Shown: positions 35,277 to 38,235 of the stretch, in pieces
How the letters are laid out: every line of letters begins with the position of its first letter
Numbering within the stretch: position 1 is the stretch's first letter
Assembly: GCA_947650745.1 (NCBI GenBank)
Contig: CANSWM010000002.1
Coordinates: 503-64,502, forward strand
Direction: 5' to 3'
From: an uncultured Clostridium sp.
GTDB taxonomy: Bacteria; Bacillota; Clostridia; TANB77; CAG-508
Length of the DNA stretch: 64,000 bases
Made by a program: the position numbers and the translations under genes
Notes under the pieces: model-generated
Seen by the model: the letters and a program-made list of their open reading frames with translations, nothing else
What the model was told of the DNA's origin: nothing
Databases searched by the model: none

Positions 35277-36467
35277 CTATTTTTCCAATATTGCTTTTTG
35301 TCCTGTTAAGTTTTCCCATCTTTGAACTATTACATCACAATATTTTGGATCTAATTCCATTGCATAGCAGGTTCTTTGTATTTGTTCTGCAGCAATTAAA
35401 GTTGAGCCACTTCCACCAAACAAATCTAATATTATGTCATTTTCTTTACTAGAATTTTTAATTAAATATACTAATAAATCTATTGGCTTCATCGTTGGAT
35501 GTTCTGCATTTCTGCTTGGCTTGTCAAATTCTAATACTGTACTCTGTTTTCTATTATCTACAAAGTAATGTCCTGCACCTTCTTTCCAGCCATATAAAAT
35601 TGGTTCGTGTCTCCATTGATAATCTTGTCTACCCATTACAAAAGTATTTTTAACCCATACTAGACATTGTGCTAATTTAAAGCCTACTGCTTTAAAAGCA
35701 TTTCTAAAGTTTAGTCCTTCTGTGTCTGCGTGAAATACATATATAGAACCACCATATTTTACACTTTCAAACATATTTCTAAAAGCATCAATCAAAAAGT
35801 TATAAAATTCAGTTTCACTCATATTATCGTTCTCGATTTTTAGTGCTGCTGATGTTTTTCCTTCATAATCAACATTGTATGGTGGATCTGTAAGAAGCAT
35901 ATCCGCTTCTTGATTATTCATAAGATGCATAACATCTTCTTTTTGCGTACTATTTCCACACATTAGTCTGTGTCGACCTAATATCCAAACATCTCCTGGT
36001 TTACTTGTTGGTTCTTCTATTTCATCTAATGCTTGATCTACATCAAAATCATCTTCTTTTGAACCTGTTATATCCTTCAGCATATTATCTACTTCATCAA
36101 AACTAAATCCTGTCATATCCATATCAATATCTGCATCCTTTAGTTCTGCAAGTAATTCTTCTAATTTAGCATTATCCCACTCGCCTGTTATTTTGTTTAA
36201 TGCTATATTTAAGGCTTTTTCCTTGTCTTTGTCCAGGTCAACAATATTACATTCTATTTCTGTATAACCTAATTCTTTTAATACTTTTAGTCTTTGATGT
36301 CCACCTATAACAGTCATATCTGCATTAACTATAACAGGTGCTACATATCCAAATTCAACTAGACTCTTTTTTATTTTTTGATATTCCTCGTCCTCTGGTT
36401 TTAGGTCTTTTCTTGGATTGTACTCTGCTGGTTTTAGTTTTTCTATGCTTATTTTTTGAATATTCAT
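35277..36467 (-). CDS. ParB-like nuclease domain / DNA methyltransferase fusion (beta-class N6A or N4C MTase)
   Basis: N-terminal ParB box (VIGGHQRLKVLKELG), motif IV TDPPY, motif I ILDLFGGSGSTL. Confidence 0.8.
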   Translation of the reverse strand: MNIQKISIEKLKPAEYNPRKDLKPEDEEYQKIKKSLVEFGYVAPVIVNADMTVIGGHQRLKVLKELGYTEIECNIVDLDKDKEKALNIALNKITGEWDNAKLEELLAELKDADIDMDMTGFSFDEVDNMLKDITGSKEDDFDVDQALDEIEEPTSKPGDVWILGRHRLMCGNSTQKEDVMHLMNNQEADMLLTDPPYNVDYEGKTSAALKIENDNMSETEFYNFLIDAFRNMFESVKYGGSIYVFHADTEGLNFRNAFKAVGFKLAQCLVWVKNTFVMGRQDYQWRHEPILYGWKEGAGHYFVDNRKQSTVLEFDKPSRNAEHPTMKPIDLLVYLIKNSSKENDIILDLFGGSGSTLIAAEQIQRTCYAMELDPKYCDVIVQRWENLTGQKAILEK

Positions 36468-36563
36468 TTCTATACTCCTTAAAACAACTCATTTCATATC
36501 TACAATTTTTACATTCTCTTAACATACATCTACTTAAATTCATAGGCATATTCCTTTATCATT

Positions 36564-36641
36564 TGGTTGCAGAAGCAGGACTTGAACCTACATATTACAA
36601 CTCTTGTGCGTTGGCTGCTTTACCAATTAAGCTATTCTGCA
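36564..36641 (-). tRNA. tRNA-like gene (78 nt) with canonical acceptor, D and T arms and encoded CCA, but non-canonical anticodon arm (4-5-bp stem, apparent 8-nt loop GCACAAGA)
   Basis: tgcagaa/ttctgca acceptor stem, D-arm gctt-aattggta-aagc, T-arm gtagg-ttcaagt-cctgc, discriminator A then CCA. The anticodon cannot be assigned confidently. Confidence 0.5.
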
Positions 36642-36650
36642 ATATAAAAA

Positions 36651-36690
36651 GGTCGCCGACATTTCTATCGGTGACCTTCAATCTATTTTA
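36651..36690 (-). terminator. hairpin (aaggtcgccga...tcggtgacctt) with T-run on minus strand, downstream of ArpU-like gene
   Basis: 11-bp stem with one G.U, loop 9 nt. Confidence 0.45.
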
Positions 36691-36792
36691 CAAAGGAGAA
36701 ACAAAAAGGTATTTACAATTTTCTCGATTATAATTATAACATAGTATATTTTGAAAAAATATAGACAAAATATATAAATTTTATATACAAAA

Positions 36793-37227
36793 TTAAGACA
36801 TTTTATTTTTATTATACTCTTTTTGCATTATTCCTATGGATCTATCAATTGTTTTTTGTATTGCTCCATACCCTCTATCTTTTTTTACTGCTATTTCCTC
36901 TATGCTTAACATCTGATAATATCTCATATCAATTATGTCCTGGTTATACTTTTTTAATGTTTTTACTAAATCTTCAACTATTTTTATTTTTGTTTTTGTT
37001 CTGTCTATGTATCTTTGCTTTTGCTCTATTTTCTCTTGTTTCTCTGCAACAAAGGCTTCTATATTAGAAGTTACAAATCCTTTTGGCTTTGGCATTCCAT
37101 CTAAATTTGAACTTTTACAATCTAATATTTCGTTTTCTAACTCTTGTATTTCTCCTTCAGTTATTGTAATGCTTGCTTTAAGTGAATTATAATTTTCAAG
37201 TACCTCTTGAACTCTCATCCTTTGCAC
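36793..37227 (-). CDS. ArpU/RinA-family phage late transcriptional activator (sigma-70 region-4-like)
   Basis: 144 aa; C-terminal IIDMRYYQMLSIEEIAVKKDRGYGAIQKTIDRSI HTH; placed just before the packaging genes. Confidence 0.6.
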   Translation of the reverse strand: MQRMRVQEVLENYNSLKASITITEGEIQELENEILDCKSSNLDGMPKPKGFVTSNIEAFVAEKQEKIEQKQRYIDRTKTKIKIVEDLVKTLKKYNQDIIDMRYYQMLSIEEIAVKKDRGYGAIQKTIDRSIGIMQKEYNKNKMS

Positions 37228-37443
37228 CTCCTAAATTTTAAATATAATAAATGTTAATATTGTACTAACAACTATTTCTATTAAATTTATAACTTTATCT
37301 TTAGCATTTGTATATTTGTTATTCATTCCATCCACCATTTTGGCCAAAGCATAAAGTCCTGTAAAAAACATAAATATTGCTTTAATTATAGCCATTTTTC
37401 ATTACACCTCCTATTCCTGGTTATTGAGTTTGTTTTTTATCTT

Positions 37444-38235
37444 TTAAAATAAGCCCCATTCTGCTAATTTTTCAAATCCACCTAGATTATTTATATAATC
37501 TTTTGCTATTTTTACTATTTCTTCATAAGGTTTTCCATCTATTTCTTCATCACCTATTGCACAAAATAATTCTACTGGCTTTTGTAATTCTTGTGCTTTT
37601 ATATGTGCATATATATTTACTGATACATCTGCTTTTGATAAGTCTTTTCCGTGTAATCCTCCACCTGTTACTGCATTTCCCATATCAGATCCTAATTTTC
37701 TATTAGTTGCTCCTGTATCTACATTTATCCCACCAGTCCATTCTCCTAATGGATTTATTATTGCTGTTGGATATAATTCTTTTAGTTCTTCAGTTTTTGC
37801 ATTACTTTGACAAATTATACATTTGTTTGTTTTTTGGTCTAATATATATTTACCATCACTATTGTATTTATCATATATTTGATGTGCTAAATAACTTATT
37901 TGTCTATCTTCTTCAGTCAATGGTACACCTTTAAATATTCCATTATCTCCACACCTTATTTTTTCATTTTGGTTATTTGCTAAATACTCATCTTGTTTGT
38001 TTGGTAGTATATGAACATCTATATTCTTACCTGCTATTCTATGTACAGCATTTTCAACCTCTTCAAAAGATACTTTTACATTTGTTTCTGTTACAATCAT
38101 ACAATGTCCGTGTCCTATTAAGACTTCTACTGCAATTTTAGGATTTTCTTCTTTTGTATATGCTAAATCTACTATTGCTCCTGCAATTCTATCTGCTACT
38201 TTATCAGGATGTTTTGGATTAACTTTTTCTATCAT
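37444..38235 (-). CDS. truncated S-adenosylmethionine synthetase (MetK) homologue, phage-encoded
   Basis: 263 aa with MetK signature blocks HPDKVADRIAGAIVD, CGDNGIF, INPLGEWTGG and GGGLHGKDLSKADVS (cf. GGGAFSGKDPSKVDRS), but ~100 aa shorter than bacterial MetK. Confidence 0.55.
   Translation of the reverse strand: MIEKVNPKHPDKVADRIAGAIVDLAYTKEENPKIAVEVLIGHGHCMIVTETNVKVSFEEVENAVHRIAGKNIDVHILPNKQDEYLANNQNEKIRCGDNGIFKGVPLTEEDRQISYLAHQIYDKYNSDGKYILDQKTNKCIICQSNAKTEELKELYPTAIINPLGEWTGGINVDTGATNRKLGSDMGNAVTGGGLHGKDLSKADVSVNIYAHIKAQELQKPVELFCAIGDEEIDGKPYEEIVKIAKDYINNLGGFEKLAEWGLF

What the first reader, a model, noticed from the sequence alone, without database searches (positions are those of the whole stretch)
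35277..38235. Phage-encoded truncated MetK-like SAM synthetase alongside a ParB-DNA methyltransferase fusion
ORF 37444-38235 (263 aa) keeps the MetK signature blocks. These are HPDKVADRI, CGDNGIF, the INPLGEWTGG loop and GGGLHGKDLSKADVS, which is cognate to GGGAFSGKDPSKVDRS. It lacks roughly 100 residues of the bacterial enzyme, so it is a miniaturised phage-type SAM synthetase. Three genes downstream is a ParB-nuclease-domain fused to a beta-class (DPPY...FGGSG) DNA methyltransferase. Two readings fit. The phage may be securing SAM supply for self-methylation, which would be anti-restriction. Alternatively it may be countering a SAM-depleting host defence. The ArpU-like late activator and a tRNA-like gene sit in between.
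Basis: partly seen in the sequence, partly recalled or inferred. Interest (0 to 1): 0.6.

Follow-up and report, generated by a model that had tools for sequence, protein, structure and literature searches.

The report
Miniature phage SAM synthetase beside methyltransferase
A prophage in a gut Clostridium-like genome carries a slimmed-down but apparently complete copy of the enzyme that makes the methyl donor SAM, near its own DNA methyltransferase; this gene pair is very common in gut phages and already annotated elsewhere, so it is a clear but fairly ordinary case.

Summary
ORF 37444-38235 (-) is a 263-aa MetK/MAT-fold protein. It passes the Pfam N-domain cut-off, aligns to E. coli MetK with hhalign probability 98.5%, and gives an AlphaFold model of pLDDT 95.9 that matches solved MATs at TM 0.72-0.79. 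Fourteen catalytic residues align unambiguously; a fifteenth (K129 = K165) is inferred.

It is not truncated. All three pseudo-symmetric domains remain, each with loops, hairpin tips and the C-terminal tail trimmed, about 121 residues in total. It belongs to phrog_1569, a very large family of at least 8000 90%-identity clusters. Members are 65-70% identical in phages of Clostridia, Bacilli, Bacteroidota, Actinomycetota and others.

In 67 of 80 viral loci the gene touches a DNA methyltransferase, on either side. In several genomes that lack one it touches radical-SAM enzymes. This favours local SAM supply for phage SAM-consuming enzymes. Here the consumer is the orphan ParB/beta-class methyltransferase at 35277-36467.

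I found no support for the reading in which it counters a SAM-depleting defence. Prophage MetKs, including a truncated one, and the supply idea are already published, and gut virome surveys rank metK as the second commonest auxiliary gene. Enzyme activity is untested. Verdict: new member of a known kind, of moderate-to-low interest.

The parts
37444..38235 (-). mini-MetK: a 263-aa miniaturised methionine adenosyltransferase-like protein (phrog_1569).
   Evidence: Sequence matches:
- Pfam PF00438: 44.9 bits.
- phrog_1569: 5.7e-69, full length.
- hhalign to E. coli MetK: 98.5%.

Structure: AF2 pLDDT 95.9, pTM 0.93. Foldseek top hits are all MATs, TMq 0.72-0.79.

Expression signals: a GGAGG ribosome-binding site lies inside the end of the upstream ORF, with only a few bases between that ORF's stop codon and this gene's ATG.
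38238..38741 (-). Upstream 167-aa ORF, translationally close-coupled to mini-MetK. It has an N-terminal hydrophobic segment and a C-terminal ParB-like 'LVDGYTSYLIAKK' stretch. It is specific to this phage lineage.
   Evidence: ORF list. No significant family hits. Homologues were found only in the same-phage contigs L085-L090.
37231..37395 (-). 54-aa hydrophobic small ORF between mini-MetK and the regulator.
   Evidence: ORF with an AGGAGGTG ribosome-binding site. It is called as a gene in metagenome contigs. No family hit.
36793..37227 (-). Small sigma-70 region-4-like transcription regulator, a putative late-gene activator. The 'ArpU-like' label is not verified.
   Evidence: phrog_36 'transcriptional regulator', 2.4e-12. 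Sigma70_r4_2 at 18.1 bits is below the 25.7 cut-off. NCBIfam gives only weak ECF sigma hits and no ArpU hit.
36649..36678 (-). Intrinsic-terminator-like hairpin followed by a T run. It separates the operon that ends with mini-MetK and the regulator from the tRNA, methyltransferase and terminase genes.
   Evidence: Terminator scan and sequence.
36564..36641 (-). tRNA-like gene with a 4-bp anticodon stem and an 8-nt loop (GCACAAGA). ARAGORN calls the anticodon 'acaa'.
   Evidence: ARAGORN. Rfam RF00005, 47.8 bits. Predicted fold. A sister phage has tRNA-Met(CAT) in the same position.
35277..36467 (-). Orphan ParB_N-domain / beta-class (DPPY ... FGGSG) N6/N4 DNA methyltransferase. It is the only recognisable SAM consumer among the prophage ORFs scanned.
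   Evidence: Pfam ParB_N and N6_N4_Mtase. phrog_498, 3.8e-175. PADLOC MTase_II, 1.3e-152. PDB relatives are beta-class MTases. Motif positions. No restriction enzyme was recognised next to it.
33223..35257 (-). Terminase small subunit (34601-35257) and a 467-aa ORF (33223-34626) in the terminase large-subunit position, immediately downstream of the methyltransferase.
   Evidence: phrog_1889 'terminase small subunit', 4.1e-34. The large-subunit role was not searched against any family here; it is inferred from gene order and from homologues next to TerS in related loci.

Best explanation
**What it is.** ORF 37444-38235 encodes a functional, miniaturised methionine adenosyltransferase. It makes SAM from ATP and L-methionine at the usual inter-subunit active site of a MAT dimer.

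**When it is made.** It is transcribed at the end of the replication/middle operon. That is just before a terminator and before the late block of tRNA, ParB-methyltransferase and terminase genes.

**What it is for.** Its job is to give the phage its own source of SAM, outside the host's control of the SAM pool. Phage-encoded SAM consumers can then work at full rate while many genome copies are made and packaged. Here the consumer is the orphan ParB/beta-class DNA methyltransferase. In other phages it is a C5 or other methyltransferase, or a radical-SAM enzyme. Methylated progeny DNA would then be protected from restriction in the next host.

**Shown here:** the MAT fold, 14 catalytic residues aligned unambiguously with a 15th (K129 = K165) inferred, strong conservation, and gene linkage to SAM-using enzymes.

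**Inferred:** enzyme activity, dimer formation, timing of expression, and the anti-restriction benefit.
For: **Fold.** AF2 gives pLDDT 95.9. The first 50 Foldseek PDB hits are all MATs, probability 1.00, TMq 0.64-0.79, and the alignments span nearly the whole target. hhalign gives 98.5% to E. coli MetK; the E. coli sequence I used was checked as identical to PDB 7ll3.

**Active site.** The alignments match these residues (mini = E. coli classic numbering): H9=H14, D11=D16, K12=K17, E37=E42, E50=E55, Q81=Q98, D97=D118, W166=F230, D173=D238, R179/K180=R244/K245, K197=K265, K201=K269, D203=D271. All are invariant in 28 close homologues. They are kept in 36-41 of 43 diverse homologues.

**Constraint.**
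- At least 8000 90%-identity clusters exist, and the best 120 listed are nearly all 261-267 aa.
- Identity is 65-70% across phages of Clostridia, Erysipelotrichaceae, Enterococcus/Streptococcus, Prevotella/Bacteroides, Treponema, Gardnerella and Mycobacteriales.

**Linkage in viral loci.** In 80 IMG/VR loci a DNA methyltransferase is directly adjacent in 67: 42 downstream, 24 upstream, 1 C5 type. It lies within the flank in 8 more. It is never absent when both flanks are available. The loci first scored as lacking one carry ParB plus C5, D12-like or short beta-class methyltransferases.

**Linkage in genomes.** In GTDB genomes 38 of 80 loci have an adjacent methyltransferase. Among those without one, L105, L120 and L141 have radical-SAM enzymes immediately downstream.

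**Longer MetKs in the same position.** A 353-aa MetK in phi1207.3 (PMC4260502) and a 345-aa MetK in Javan320 occupy the same slot upstream of a ParB-methyltransferase and a C5 methyltransferase. MetK function therefore tracks the methyltransferase module whichever version is present.

**An analogous published arrangement.** Phage CmoA makes the cofactor for the adjacent DNA transferase CmoX (PMC12783734).
Against: - No enzyme assay exists for this family in the literature I could search. PHROGs lists it as 'unknown function'.
- It fails the curated MetK equivalog model (TIGR01034: 54.8 bits against a cut-off of 309.4). It has no Pfam central-domain hit and a sub-threshold C-domain hit.
- The equivalent of the triphosphate-binding Lys165 is uncertain. 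I assign K129 from hairpin topology and its invariance. MAFFT and hhalign instead pair 'SDGK' with the non-catalytic E. coli 'DDGK' turn, and the segment alone finds no MetK.
- Dimer formation could not be modelled.
- The methyltransferase's target is unknown. If it methylates a rare 4-6-bp site, SAM demand per burst is small and the need for extra SAM is unclear.
- In this phage the two genes are not adjacent. They are 977 nt apart and separated by a terminator.
- 23 of 80 genome loci show no SAM consumer within 4 kb under my limited query set.
Confidence: 0.62

Rival explanations
1. Lysogenic-conversion gene. The mini-MetK is expressed from the resident prophage and changes the host's SAM-dependent physiology (polyamines, quorum signalling, cell wall, biofilm). 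It benefits the lysogen and is not there to serve phage DNA methylation.
For: The only experimental work found is on S. agalactiae prophage 12/111phiA. [quoted passage not shown] Plasmid-borne metK partly restored these traits (PMC8223999). Virome surveys treat phage metK as a host-metabolism auxiliary gene (PMC12180181 and PMC12454387).
Against: - In this window the gene sits inside the lytic gene array on the same strand, close-coupled to the upstream replication-module ORF with only a few bases between them. It has no terminator of its own, and promoter-like hits are no more frequent than in shuffled sequence (35 against 38.2).
- Near-obligate adjacency to DNA methyltransferases, in either order, is not expected for a host-physiology gene.
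Confidence: 0.15
2. Counter-defence. The phage enzyme replaces SAM that is destroyed or withheld during infection. The loss could come from a host immune system, or from SAM lyases of competing phages or resident prophages.
For: SAM is a known battleground. T3 SAM lyase degrades SAM and inhibits MetK to escape Type I R-M and BREX (bioRxiv 10.1101/2023.02.27.530186 and PMC8406200, seen). NAD+-rebuilding phage pathways show that the logic exists for another cofactor (PMC13464706).
Against: - No SAM-depleting defence system appeared in the literature searches.
- PADLOC gives no hit for the protein.
- No defence or anti-defence genes were recognised among its neighbours here.
- The tight linkage to phage SAM consumers is explained more simply by plain supply.
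Confidence: 0.08
3. The protein is not a standard SAM synthetase. It might make a different sulfonium cofactor (another nucleotide or amino acid). Or it might act without catalysis, for example by forming mixed oligomers with host MetK to tune or poison it.
For: - The protein is only about 20% identical to cellular MATs and fails the equivalog model.
- About a third of the canonical structure is gone, including parts of the surfaces used for tetramer contacts.
- Phages are known to supply an altered SAM (Cx-SAM) to DNA transferases (PMC12783734).
- T3 SAMase acts through hetero-polymers with MetK (PMC8406200).
Against: - The methionine-binding positions (E50, Q81, D173), the adenine-stacking aromatic (W166) and the phosphate/metal ligands are all kept. 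That argues for normal chemistry and against a non-catalytic role.
- The partners belong to several unrelated families that use ordinary SAM (beta-class N6/N4, C5 and D12-like methyltransferases, radical SAM).
Confidence: 0.07

Closest known systems
Canonical bacterial MetK / methionine adenosyltransferase (E. coli MetK, PDB 7ll3/1fug; Pfam PF00438+PF02772+PF02773; TIGR01034)
   Same: Same three-domain pseudo-symmetric fold (Foldseek TMq 0.72-0.79). Same catalytic and ligand-binding residues. Same GHPDK, GAGDQG-like (CGDNG) and GGGAFSGKDxSKVD-like motifs.
   Different: - 263 aa against 384.
- About 20% identity.
- Trimmed segments, in E. coli numbering: loop about 78-90; about 153-162; the tip of hairpin 164-190; 193-226 reduced to 12 aa; the tip of hairpin 297-320; the C-terminal 337-384 reduced to 14 aa.
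- No Pfam central-domain hit, C-domain below cut-off, and TIGR01034 far below cut-off.
Long prophage MetKs in the same module (S. pyogenes phi1207.3 orf29, 353 aa, PMC4260502; Streptococcus phage Javan320, 345 aa)
   Same: Same genomic position: after the helicase and replication genes, upstream of a ParB-N6/N4 methyltransferase and a C5 methyltransferase, before terminase. The authors already proposed the same role, as methyl-donor supply for the phage methylase.
   Different: They carry all three Pfam MetK domains at near-canonical length. They are only 26% identical to the window protein.
Truncated prophage MetK of S. agalactiae 12/111phiA (Renard et al. 2021, PMC8223999) and 260-aa Javan-prophage homologues
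   Same: It is described as MetK with a 135-aa truncation relative to E. coli MetK that spares the catalytic region. The 12/111phiA-like Javan prophages of S. constellatus and S. equi carry 260-aa proteins 67% identical to the window protein. It is therefore very probably the same family.
   Different: - It was studied as a host-phenotype (biofilm and aggregation) factor, not in relation to DNA methylation.
- There it sits next to a RelB/YafQ toxin-antitoxin pair and an endonuclease.
- The 12/111phiA sequence itself was not available to me for direct comparison.
Phage CmoA-CmoX module (Synechococcus phage S-B43, PMC12783734)
   Same: Same logic: a phage encodes the synthase of a sulfonium cofactor next to the DNA transferase that uses it.
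   Different: Different enzymes and product (Cx-SAM from SAM plus prephenate; 5-carboxymethylcytosine). That system has been shown biochemically.
T3 SAM lyase (SAMase)
   Same: It is also a phage enzyme acting on the host SAM pool in the context of restriction-modification conflict.
   Different: Opposite strategy: it destroys SAM and blocks host MetK so that host SAM-dependent defences fail. The fold is unrelated.
ParB-CTPase-fold / N6_N4 methyltransferase fusions of phages (PNAS 2025, PMC12704722)
   Same: The 396-aa protein has exactly this architecture. It is reported as enriched in phages and prophages.
   Different: That survey does not mention a link to MetK in the passages I read. The nucleotide bound by, and the role of, the ParB domain in these fusions are unknown.

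Membership tests
MetK / methionine adenosyltransferase | N-terminal domain profile (PF00438) above the gathering score | tested here: met
   44.9 bits against 33.1, E 1.7e-11, aa 3-66.
MetK / methionine adenosyltransferase | Central domain profile (PF02772) detected | tested here: not met
   No hit at E <= 0.1. Residues 100-168 searched alone find no MAT in PDB.
MetK / methionine adenosyltransferase | C-terminal domain profile (PF02773) above the gathering score | tested here: not met
   15 bits against 25, covering only profile positions 2-53 of 138.
MetK / methionine adenosyltransferase | NCBIfam equivalog TIGR01034 above its cut-off | tested here: not met
   54.8 bits against 309.4.
MetK / methionine adenosyltransferase | Three-domain beta-alpha-beta-beta-alpha-beta MAT fold | tested here: met
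   AF2 pLDDT 95.9, pTM 0.93. The top 50 PDB matches are all MATs, probability 1.00, TMq up to 0.79, with alignments spanning the whole target. The secondary-structure order matches three trimmed repeats.
MetK / methionine adenosyltransferase | Catalytic and ligand residues: His14, Asp16, Glu42, Glu55, Gln98, Asp118, Phe230, Asp238, Arg244, Lys245, Lys265, Lys269, Asp271 (E. coli numbering) | tested here: met
   All align to identical residues, with Phe230 replaced by Trp. They are invariant in close homologues and kept in 36-41 of 43 diverse ones.
MetK / methionine adenosyltransferase | Triphosphate-binding Lys165 in the first strand of the N-domain hairpin | tested here: inconclusive
   The invariant D127-G128-K129 at the start of strand 128-133 fits the canonical PD(G/A)K motif and the hairpin topology. 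However, MAFFT and hhalign pair it with E. coli DDGK 175-178. No residue-level structural alignment was available.
MetK / methionine adenosyltransferase | Homodimer with the active site between subunits; SAM synthesis from ATP and L-Met | not testable with these tools
No assay for this family was found in the literature searches.
phrog_1569 (phage protein family, unknown function) | Full-length match to the family profile | tested here: met
   E 5.7e-69, 234 bits, aa 1-263 on profile positions 4-337 of 346.
Beta-class N6/N4 amino DNA methyltransferase | PF01555 above cut-off, with motif IV (DPPY) before motif I (FxGxG) | tested here: met
   106.7 bits against 26.7. DPPY at aa 194-197, FGGSG at aa 350-354. 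PDB relatives are DpnA-like, N4C, MboIIA and CcrM methyltransferases. The target base and motif cannot be read from the sequence; DPPY (as opposed to SPPY) suggests N6-adenine, from general knowledge.
ParB N-terminal (ParB-CTPase fold) domain | PF02195 above cut-off | tested here: met
   29.9 bits against 26.3, aa 2-84. The GGHQR box lies at aa 55-59. Nucleotide binding was not tested.
ArpU-type late transcription activator | Match to an ArpU family model | tested here: not met
   No ArpU model among Pfam or NCBIfam hits. Only sub-threshold sigma-70 region 4 hits and phrog_36 'transcriptional regulator'. Its position in front of the terminase is typical of such activators.
tRNA | Cloverleaf matching Rfam RF00005, with a 7-nt anticodon loop on a 5-bp stem | tested here: inconclusive
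   47.8 bits against 29. But the anticodon stem has 4 bp, the loop has 8 nt (GCACAAGA), there is no U33, and no amino-acid identity is assigned.

The most novel reading that the evidence does not exclude
The mini-MetK family may be the smallest natural methionine adenosyltransferase, a minimal catalytic core that escapes the host's regulation of SAM synthesis. If so, it acts as a portable 'SAM generator' that phages attach to any SAM-hungry enzyme (DNA methyltransferases of several classes, radical-SAM enzymes). SAM supply would then be a general, previously unmeasured limiting factor for phage self-modification and anti-restriction. It could possibly extend to low-specificity, high-density methylation by the ParB-fused methyltransferases, or to a non-standard cofactor.
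Probability: 0.2. Interest if true: 0.6.

Novelty: new member of a known kind. Interest (0 to 1): 0.33.

Why it matters
Phage metK is one of the commonest 'auxiliary metabolic genes' in gut viromes, second only to dcm in two surveys. Yet the dominant 263-aa form is filed as 'unknown function' in PHROGs and has never been assayed.

Showing that it is active would have three consequences:
- It would define a MAT core about one third smaller than any solved enzyme, which is useful for enzymology and for making SAM analogues.
- It would correct the annotation of many thousands of phage genes.
- It would make a simple question testable: is the host SAM pool limiting for phage DNA methylation and escape from restriction? 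That would be the mirror image of the T3 strategy of destroying SAM.

As it stands, the window adds a clean, well-documented example to a gene pairing that has been noticed before.

Tried and rejected
- **Megablast of the region against phage records:** no match. The phage itself is not in INPHARED; only protein-level relatives are.
- **First AF2 run with 28 close homologues:** pLDDT 62, badly packed domains, Foldseek TM about 0.3. I discarded it in favour of the run with a more diverse alignment.
- **MetK-methyltransferase fusion proteins ('Rosetta stone'):** I looked among long family members. There are none. The long forms are insertions, or in one case what looks like a mis-joined capsid/Clp protease ORF.
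- **BFVD viral structure library:** no significant match. The family is not represented there.
- **PADLOC:** nothing for mini-MetK or its small neighbours.
- **Literature on a SAM-depleting defence, or on a biochemical study of phage MetK:** none found.
- **Middle segment (aa 100-168) searched alone against PDB, to settle the Lys165 equivalent:** only chance hits.
- **Two IMG/VR scans for the odd tRNA:** no match.
- **A pseudogene or a recently truncated host metK:** considered and rejected. The ORF is intact, the identical protein is found in 21 contigs read, and it belongs to a length-conserved clade far from cellular MetKs.
- **A classical restriction-modification pair:** considered and rejected. 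No endonuclease was recognised next to the methyltransferase.

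
Full report
**Setting.** The window has about 28% G+C. It holds a prophage of roughly 39.5 kb, from about 14.1 to 53.5 kb.
- The prophage is bounded by an amidase lysin (14162-15136) at one end. At the other end are a LexA-like repressor (50945-51574, +) and a tyrosine integrase (52198-53463, +).
- Host genes (a class I Glu/Gln tRNA-synthetase-like gene and RNase J) follow beyond 53.8 kb.
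- All lytic genes are on the minus strand.
- The identical mini-MetK protein occurs on 21 contigs read (six shown are metagenome contigs). A 99%-identical copy sits in an 'uncultured Clostridium sp.' MAG.

**Check of the observation.**
- The match to MetK is statistically solid. Pfam S-AdoMet_synt_N scores 44.9 bits (cut-off 33.1). Forty-five solved MAT chains match with E down to 9e-12, in two stretches, aa 3-65 and aa 148-217. A profile of the family aligns to E. coli MetK with hhalign probability 98.5% over 265 columns.
- The downstream 396-aa ORF is a ParB_N plus N6_N4_Mtase fusion with DPPY (aa 194-197) before FGGSG (aa 350-354), which is the beta-class order.
- Between the two genes lie a 54-aa hydrophobic ORF, a small regulator, a terminator-like hairpin and a tRNA-like gene.
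- The regulator is sigma-70 region-4-like. phrog_36 matches at 2.4e-12, but no ArpU model matches.

**What the 263-aa protein is.** With a shallow alignment AlphaFold gave a poor model. With 43 more diverse family members it gave pLDDT 95.9 and pTM 0.93.
- The best 50 matches in the PDB are all methionine adenosyltransferases (probability 1.00, TM normalised to the query 0.64-0.79). The alignments run from one end of the roughly 380-aa targets to the other.
- The order of secondary-structure elements and the sequence alignments show that no domain is missing. The central domain (aa 10-79 plus 161-200) is almost complete. The other two domains keep their helices and strands but lose loops, hairpin tips and the C-terminal tail.
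- In E. coli numbering the losses are: about 78-90; about 153-162; the tip of hairpin 164-190; 193-226 shortened to 12 residues; the tip of hairpin 297-320; and 337-384 shortened to 14 residues. The total is 121 residues.
- 'Miniaturised' is therefore right and 'truncated' is not.

**Active site.** The alignments give these equivalences (mini = E. coli classic numbering): H9=H14, D11=D16, K12=K17, E37=E42, E50=E55, Q81=Q98, D97=D118, W166=F230, D173=D238, R179/K180=R244/K245, K197=K265, K201=K269, D203=D271.
- All are invariant among 28 close homologues. They are kept in 36-41 of 43 diverse ones.
- One catalytic residue is uncertain. I take the invariant D127-G128-K129, at the start of the first hairpin strand, to be the PD(A/G)K motif that carries Lys165. 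If both mini strands are to map onto the two E. coli hairpin strands, this is the only consistent solution.
- MAFFT and hhalign, however, pair it with the 'DDGK' hairpin turn of E. coli. The segment on its own finds nothing in the PDB.
- This step is inference.

**Family.** The protein matches phrog_1569 ('unknown function') end to end (5.7e-69).
- A search of the 90%-clustered database hit its ceiling of 8000 scored candidates, all significant. The best 120 listed are nearly all 261-267 aa.
- In the 50%-clustered library only 202 representatives score below 1e-30 and 1460 below 1e-3. The family is therefore very numerous but tightly conserved, and it is well separated from cellular MetKs at about 20% identity.
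- It fails the curated MetK equivalog model by a wide margin (54.8 bits against 309.4).
- Copies 65-70% identical occur in phages or prophages of Clostridia, Erysipelotrichaceae, Enterococcus, Streptococcus, Ligilactobacillus, Prevotella/Segatella/Bacteroides/Alistipes, Treponema, Gardnerella, Mycobacteriales and Acholeplasmataceae.
- Such conservation across phyla is unusual for a phage protein. It points to a constrained enzyme.

**Gene neighbourhood.** I extracted ORFs from 80 IMG/VR loci and 80 GTDB genome loci that encode the protein. I then searched them with the window's methyltransferase and with other methyltransferases found on the way.
- In the viral set a DNA methyltransferase lies directly next to mini-MetK (150 nt or less) in 67 of 80 loci: 42 immediately downstream, 24 immediately upstream, and one a C5 enzyme.
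- Eight more have one within 6 kb. The remaining five have a cut-off flank.
- The loci first scored as negative carry a stand-alone ParB plus a C5 methyltransferase, two C5 methyltransferases, a D12-like NPPTY enzyme, or a short beta-class enzyme.
- In the genome set (4-kb flanks) 38 of 80 are adjacent and 10 are nearby.
- Among the 23 genome loci without a methyltransferase, L105, L120 and L141 have radical-SAM enzymes immediately downstream. L105 has two in a row.
- In Gardnerella phage vB_Gva_AB1, Streptococcus phage Javan105 and Terrisporobacter phage TPDSL_ph1, mini-MetK is immediately followed by the ParB-methyltransferase.
- In S. pyogenes phi1207.3 and Javan320 a near-full-length MetK (353 and 345 aa) occupies the same slot ahead of a ParB-methyltransferase and a C5 methyltransferase.
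- The samples are not phylogenetically independent, so I give no P-value. Still, linkage in both gene orders, to several unrelated families of SAM-using enzymes, and with two very different MetK versions, is hard to explain except by the shared cofactor.

**This phage.** The pair here is split by 977 nt.
- Mini-MetK is close-coupled to the last ORF of the replication region (a few bases between that ORF's stop codon and its ATG, GGAGG site).
- It is followed by the 54-aa ORF and the regulator, then a hairpin with a T run (36649-36678). After that come the tRNA-like gene, the methyltransferase and the small terminase, then a 467-aa ORF in the large-terminase position.
- I infer that SAM synthesis starts with middle genes and that the methyltransferase is made with the packaging genes.
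- No other SAM-dependent enzyme was recognised among the prophage ORFs I scanned.
- No endonuclease was recognised next to the methyltransferase, so it is an orphan.

**Mechanism proposed.** A dimeric mini-MAT makes SAM from ATP and methionine, independently of the host's own control of SAM synthesis. The ParB-fused beta-class methyltransferase uses it to methylate replicating phage DNA before packaging, which protects progeny from restriction.
- The size of the benefit depends on how many sites are methylated. The prophage has about 28,000 adenines on both strands, so a low-specificity enzyme would need far more SAM per burst than a 6-bp-specific one. The specificity is unknown.
- Confidence that the protein has the MAT fold and active site: high.
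- Confidence that it makes SAM: about 0.75.
- Confidence that its role is supply for phage SAM consumers: about 0.6.

**Rivals.**
- (i) A lysogenic-conversion role. This is suggested by the only experimental paper, in which a truncated prophage MetK in S. agalactiae affected aggregation and biofilm (PMC8223999). The gene's place inside the lytic array and its near-obligate methyltransferase partner argue against this as the main role.
- (ii) Countering SAM depletion. I found no SAM-depleting defence in the literature searches and no hit in PADLOC.
- (iii) A different product or a non-catalytic modulator of host MetK. This is disfavoured by the intact methionine, adenine and phosphate ligands and by the variety of ordinary SAM-using partners.

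**Comparison with what is known.**
- Prophage MetKs have been annotated for more than a decade. Iannelli et al. (PMC4260502) already proposed that the phi1207.3 enzyme supplies the methyl donor for the phage methylase.
- Renard et al. (PMC8223999) described a 135-aa-shorter prophage MetK. GenBank and JGI records label some family members as SAM synthetase.
- Gut virome surveys rank metK second among phage auxiliary genes, after dcm (PMC12180181 and PMC12454387).
- ParB/N6_N4 methyltransferase fusions are a recognised phage-enriched architecture (PMC12704722).
- A conceptually similar, biochemically proven pair is CmoA-CmoX (PMC12783734).
- What this analysis adds is the structural map of the miniaturisation, the residue-by-residue check, the cross-phylum conservation, and the neighbourhood counts that tie the family to SAM consumers in general.

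**Verdict.** The finding is a new member of a known kind, with untested biochemistry. Interest is moderate to low.

Noticed in passing
window 16272-19561 (RT 16272-17402 -, TR 17551-17645, VR 18320-18414 within tail-fibre gene 18308-19561 -): The same prophage carries a diversity-generating retroelement. A reverse transcriptase (RVT_1) lies next to a 95-nt template repeat, and an 81%-identical variable repeat lies at the 3' end of the tail-fibre gene. All 18 mismatches fall on T of the + strand, that is, on A of the coding strand. This is the hallmark of adenine-directed mutagenesis.
   Followed up: partly
window 36564-36641 (-): The tRNA-like gene scores well as a tRNA (Rfam 47.8 bits) but has a 4-bp anticodon stem and an 8-nt loop GCACAAGA without U33. 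ARAGORN reads a four-base anticodon 'acaa'. It could be a degenerate tRNA or a quadruplet/frameshift-type decoder. It has no match in IMG/VR. The closely related phage contig L086 has a normal tRNA-Met(CAT) in the same slot.
   Followed up: partly
L105:4959-7755, L120:4774-6009, L141:4827-6191 (GTDB genome loci): In genomes where mini-MetK has no methyltransferase neighbour, it is immediately followed by radical-SAM enzymes. These include a B12-binding/radical SAM type, a CoaE-radical SAM-SPASM fusion, and a radical SAM-SPASM type. Their functions are unknown.
   Followed up: partly
window 38238-38741 (-): The 167-aa ORF coupled to the start of mini-MetK has an N-terminal hydrophobic segment. 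Its C-terminal stretch (PIIIDPSNTLVDGYTSYLIAKKYNL) resembles the core of a ParB/Srx-type domain. It has no significant family hit and occurs only in this phage lineage.
   Followed up: no
P0199, P0195, P0175, P0217, P0226 (family members of 346-415 aa): Some family members carry large insertions. One example is an insertion of about 80 aa, rich in polar residues, at the tip of the N-domain hairpin in P0199. These insertions sit exactly where the mini form is trimmed, which suggests that those positions tolerate length change.
   Followed up: no
L102, L112, L115, L128, L132, L155, L159, L161, L162 (Prevotella/Segatella/Bacteroides/Alistipes contigs): Copies 66-69% identical to the Clostridium-phage protein sit in Bacteroidota genomes. 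There they lie next to 284-351-aa proteins with no Pfam hit and without a methyltransferase within 4 kb. The cross-phylum spread and the different context were not explored.
   Followed up: no
window 36355-36549 (-): A 64-aa, very basic ORF (a Cys-rich N-terminus followed by a Lys/Arg-rich tail) starts just after the tRNA-like gene. It overlaps the start of the methyltransferase in another frame. It is not called as a gene in the metagenome contigs and has no family hit. It is probably not real.
   Followed up: no
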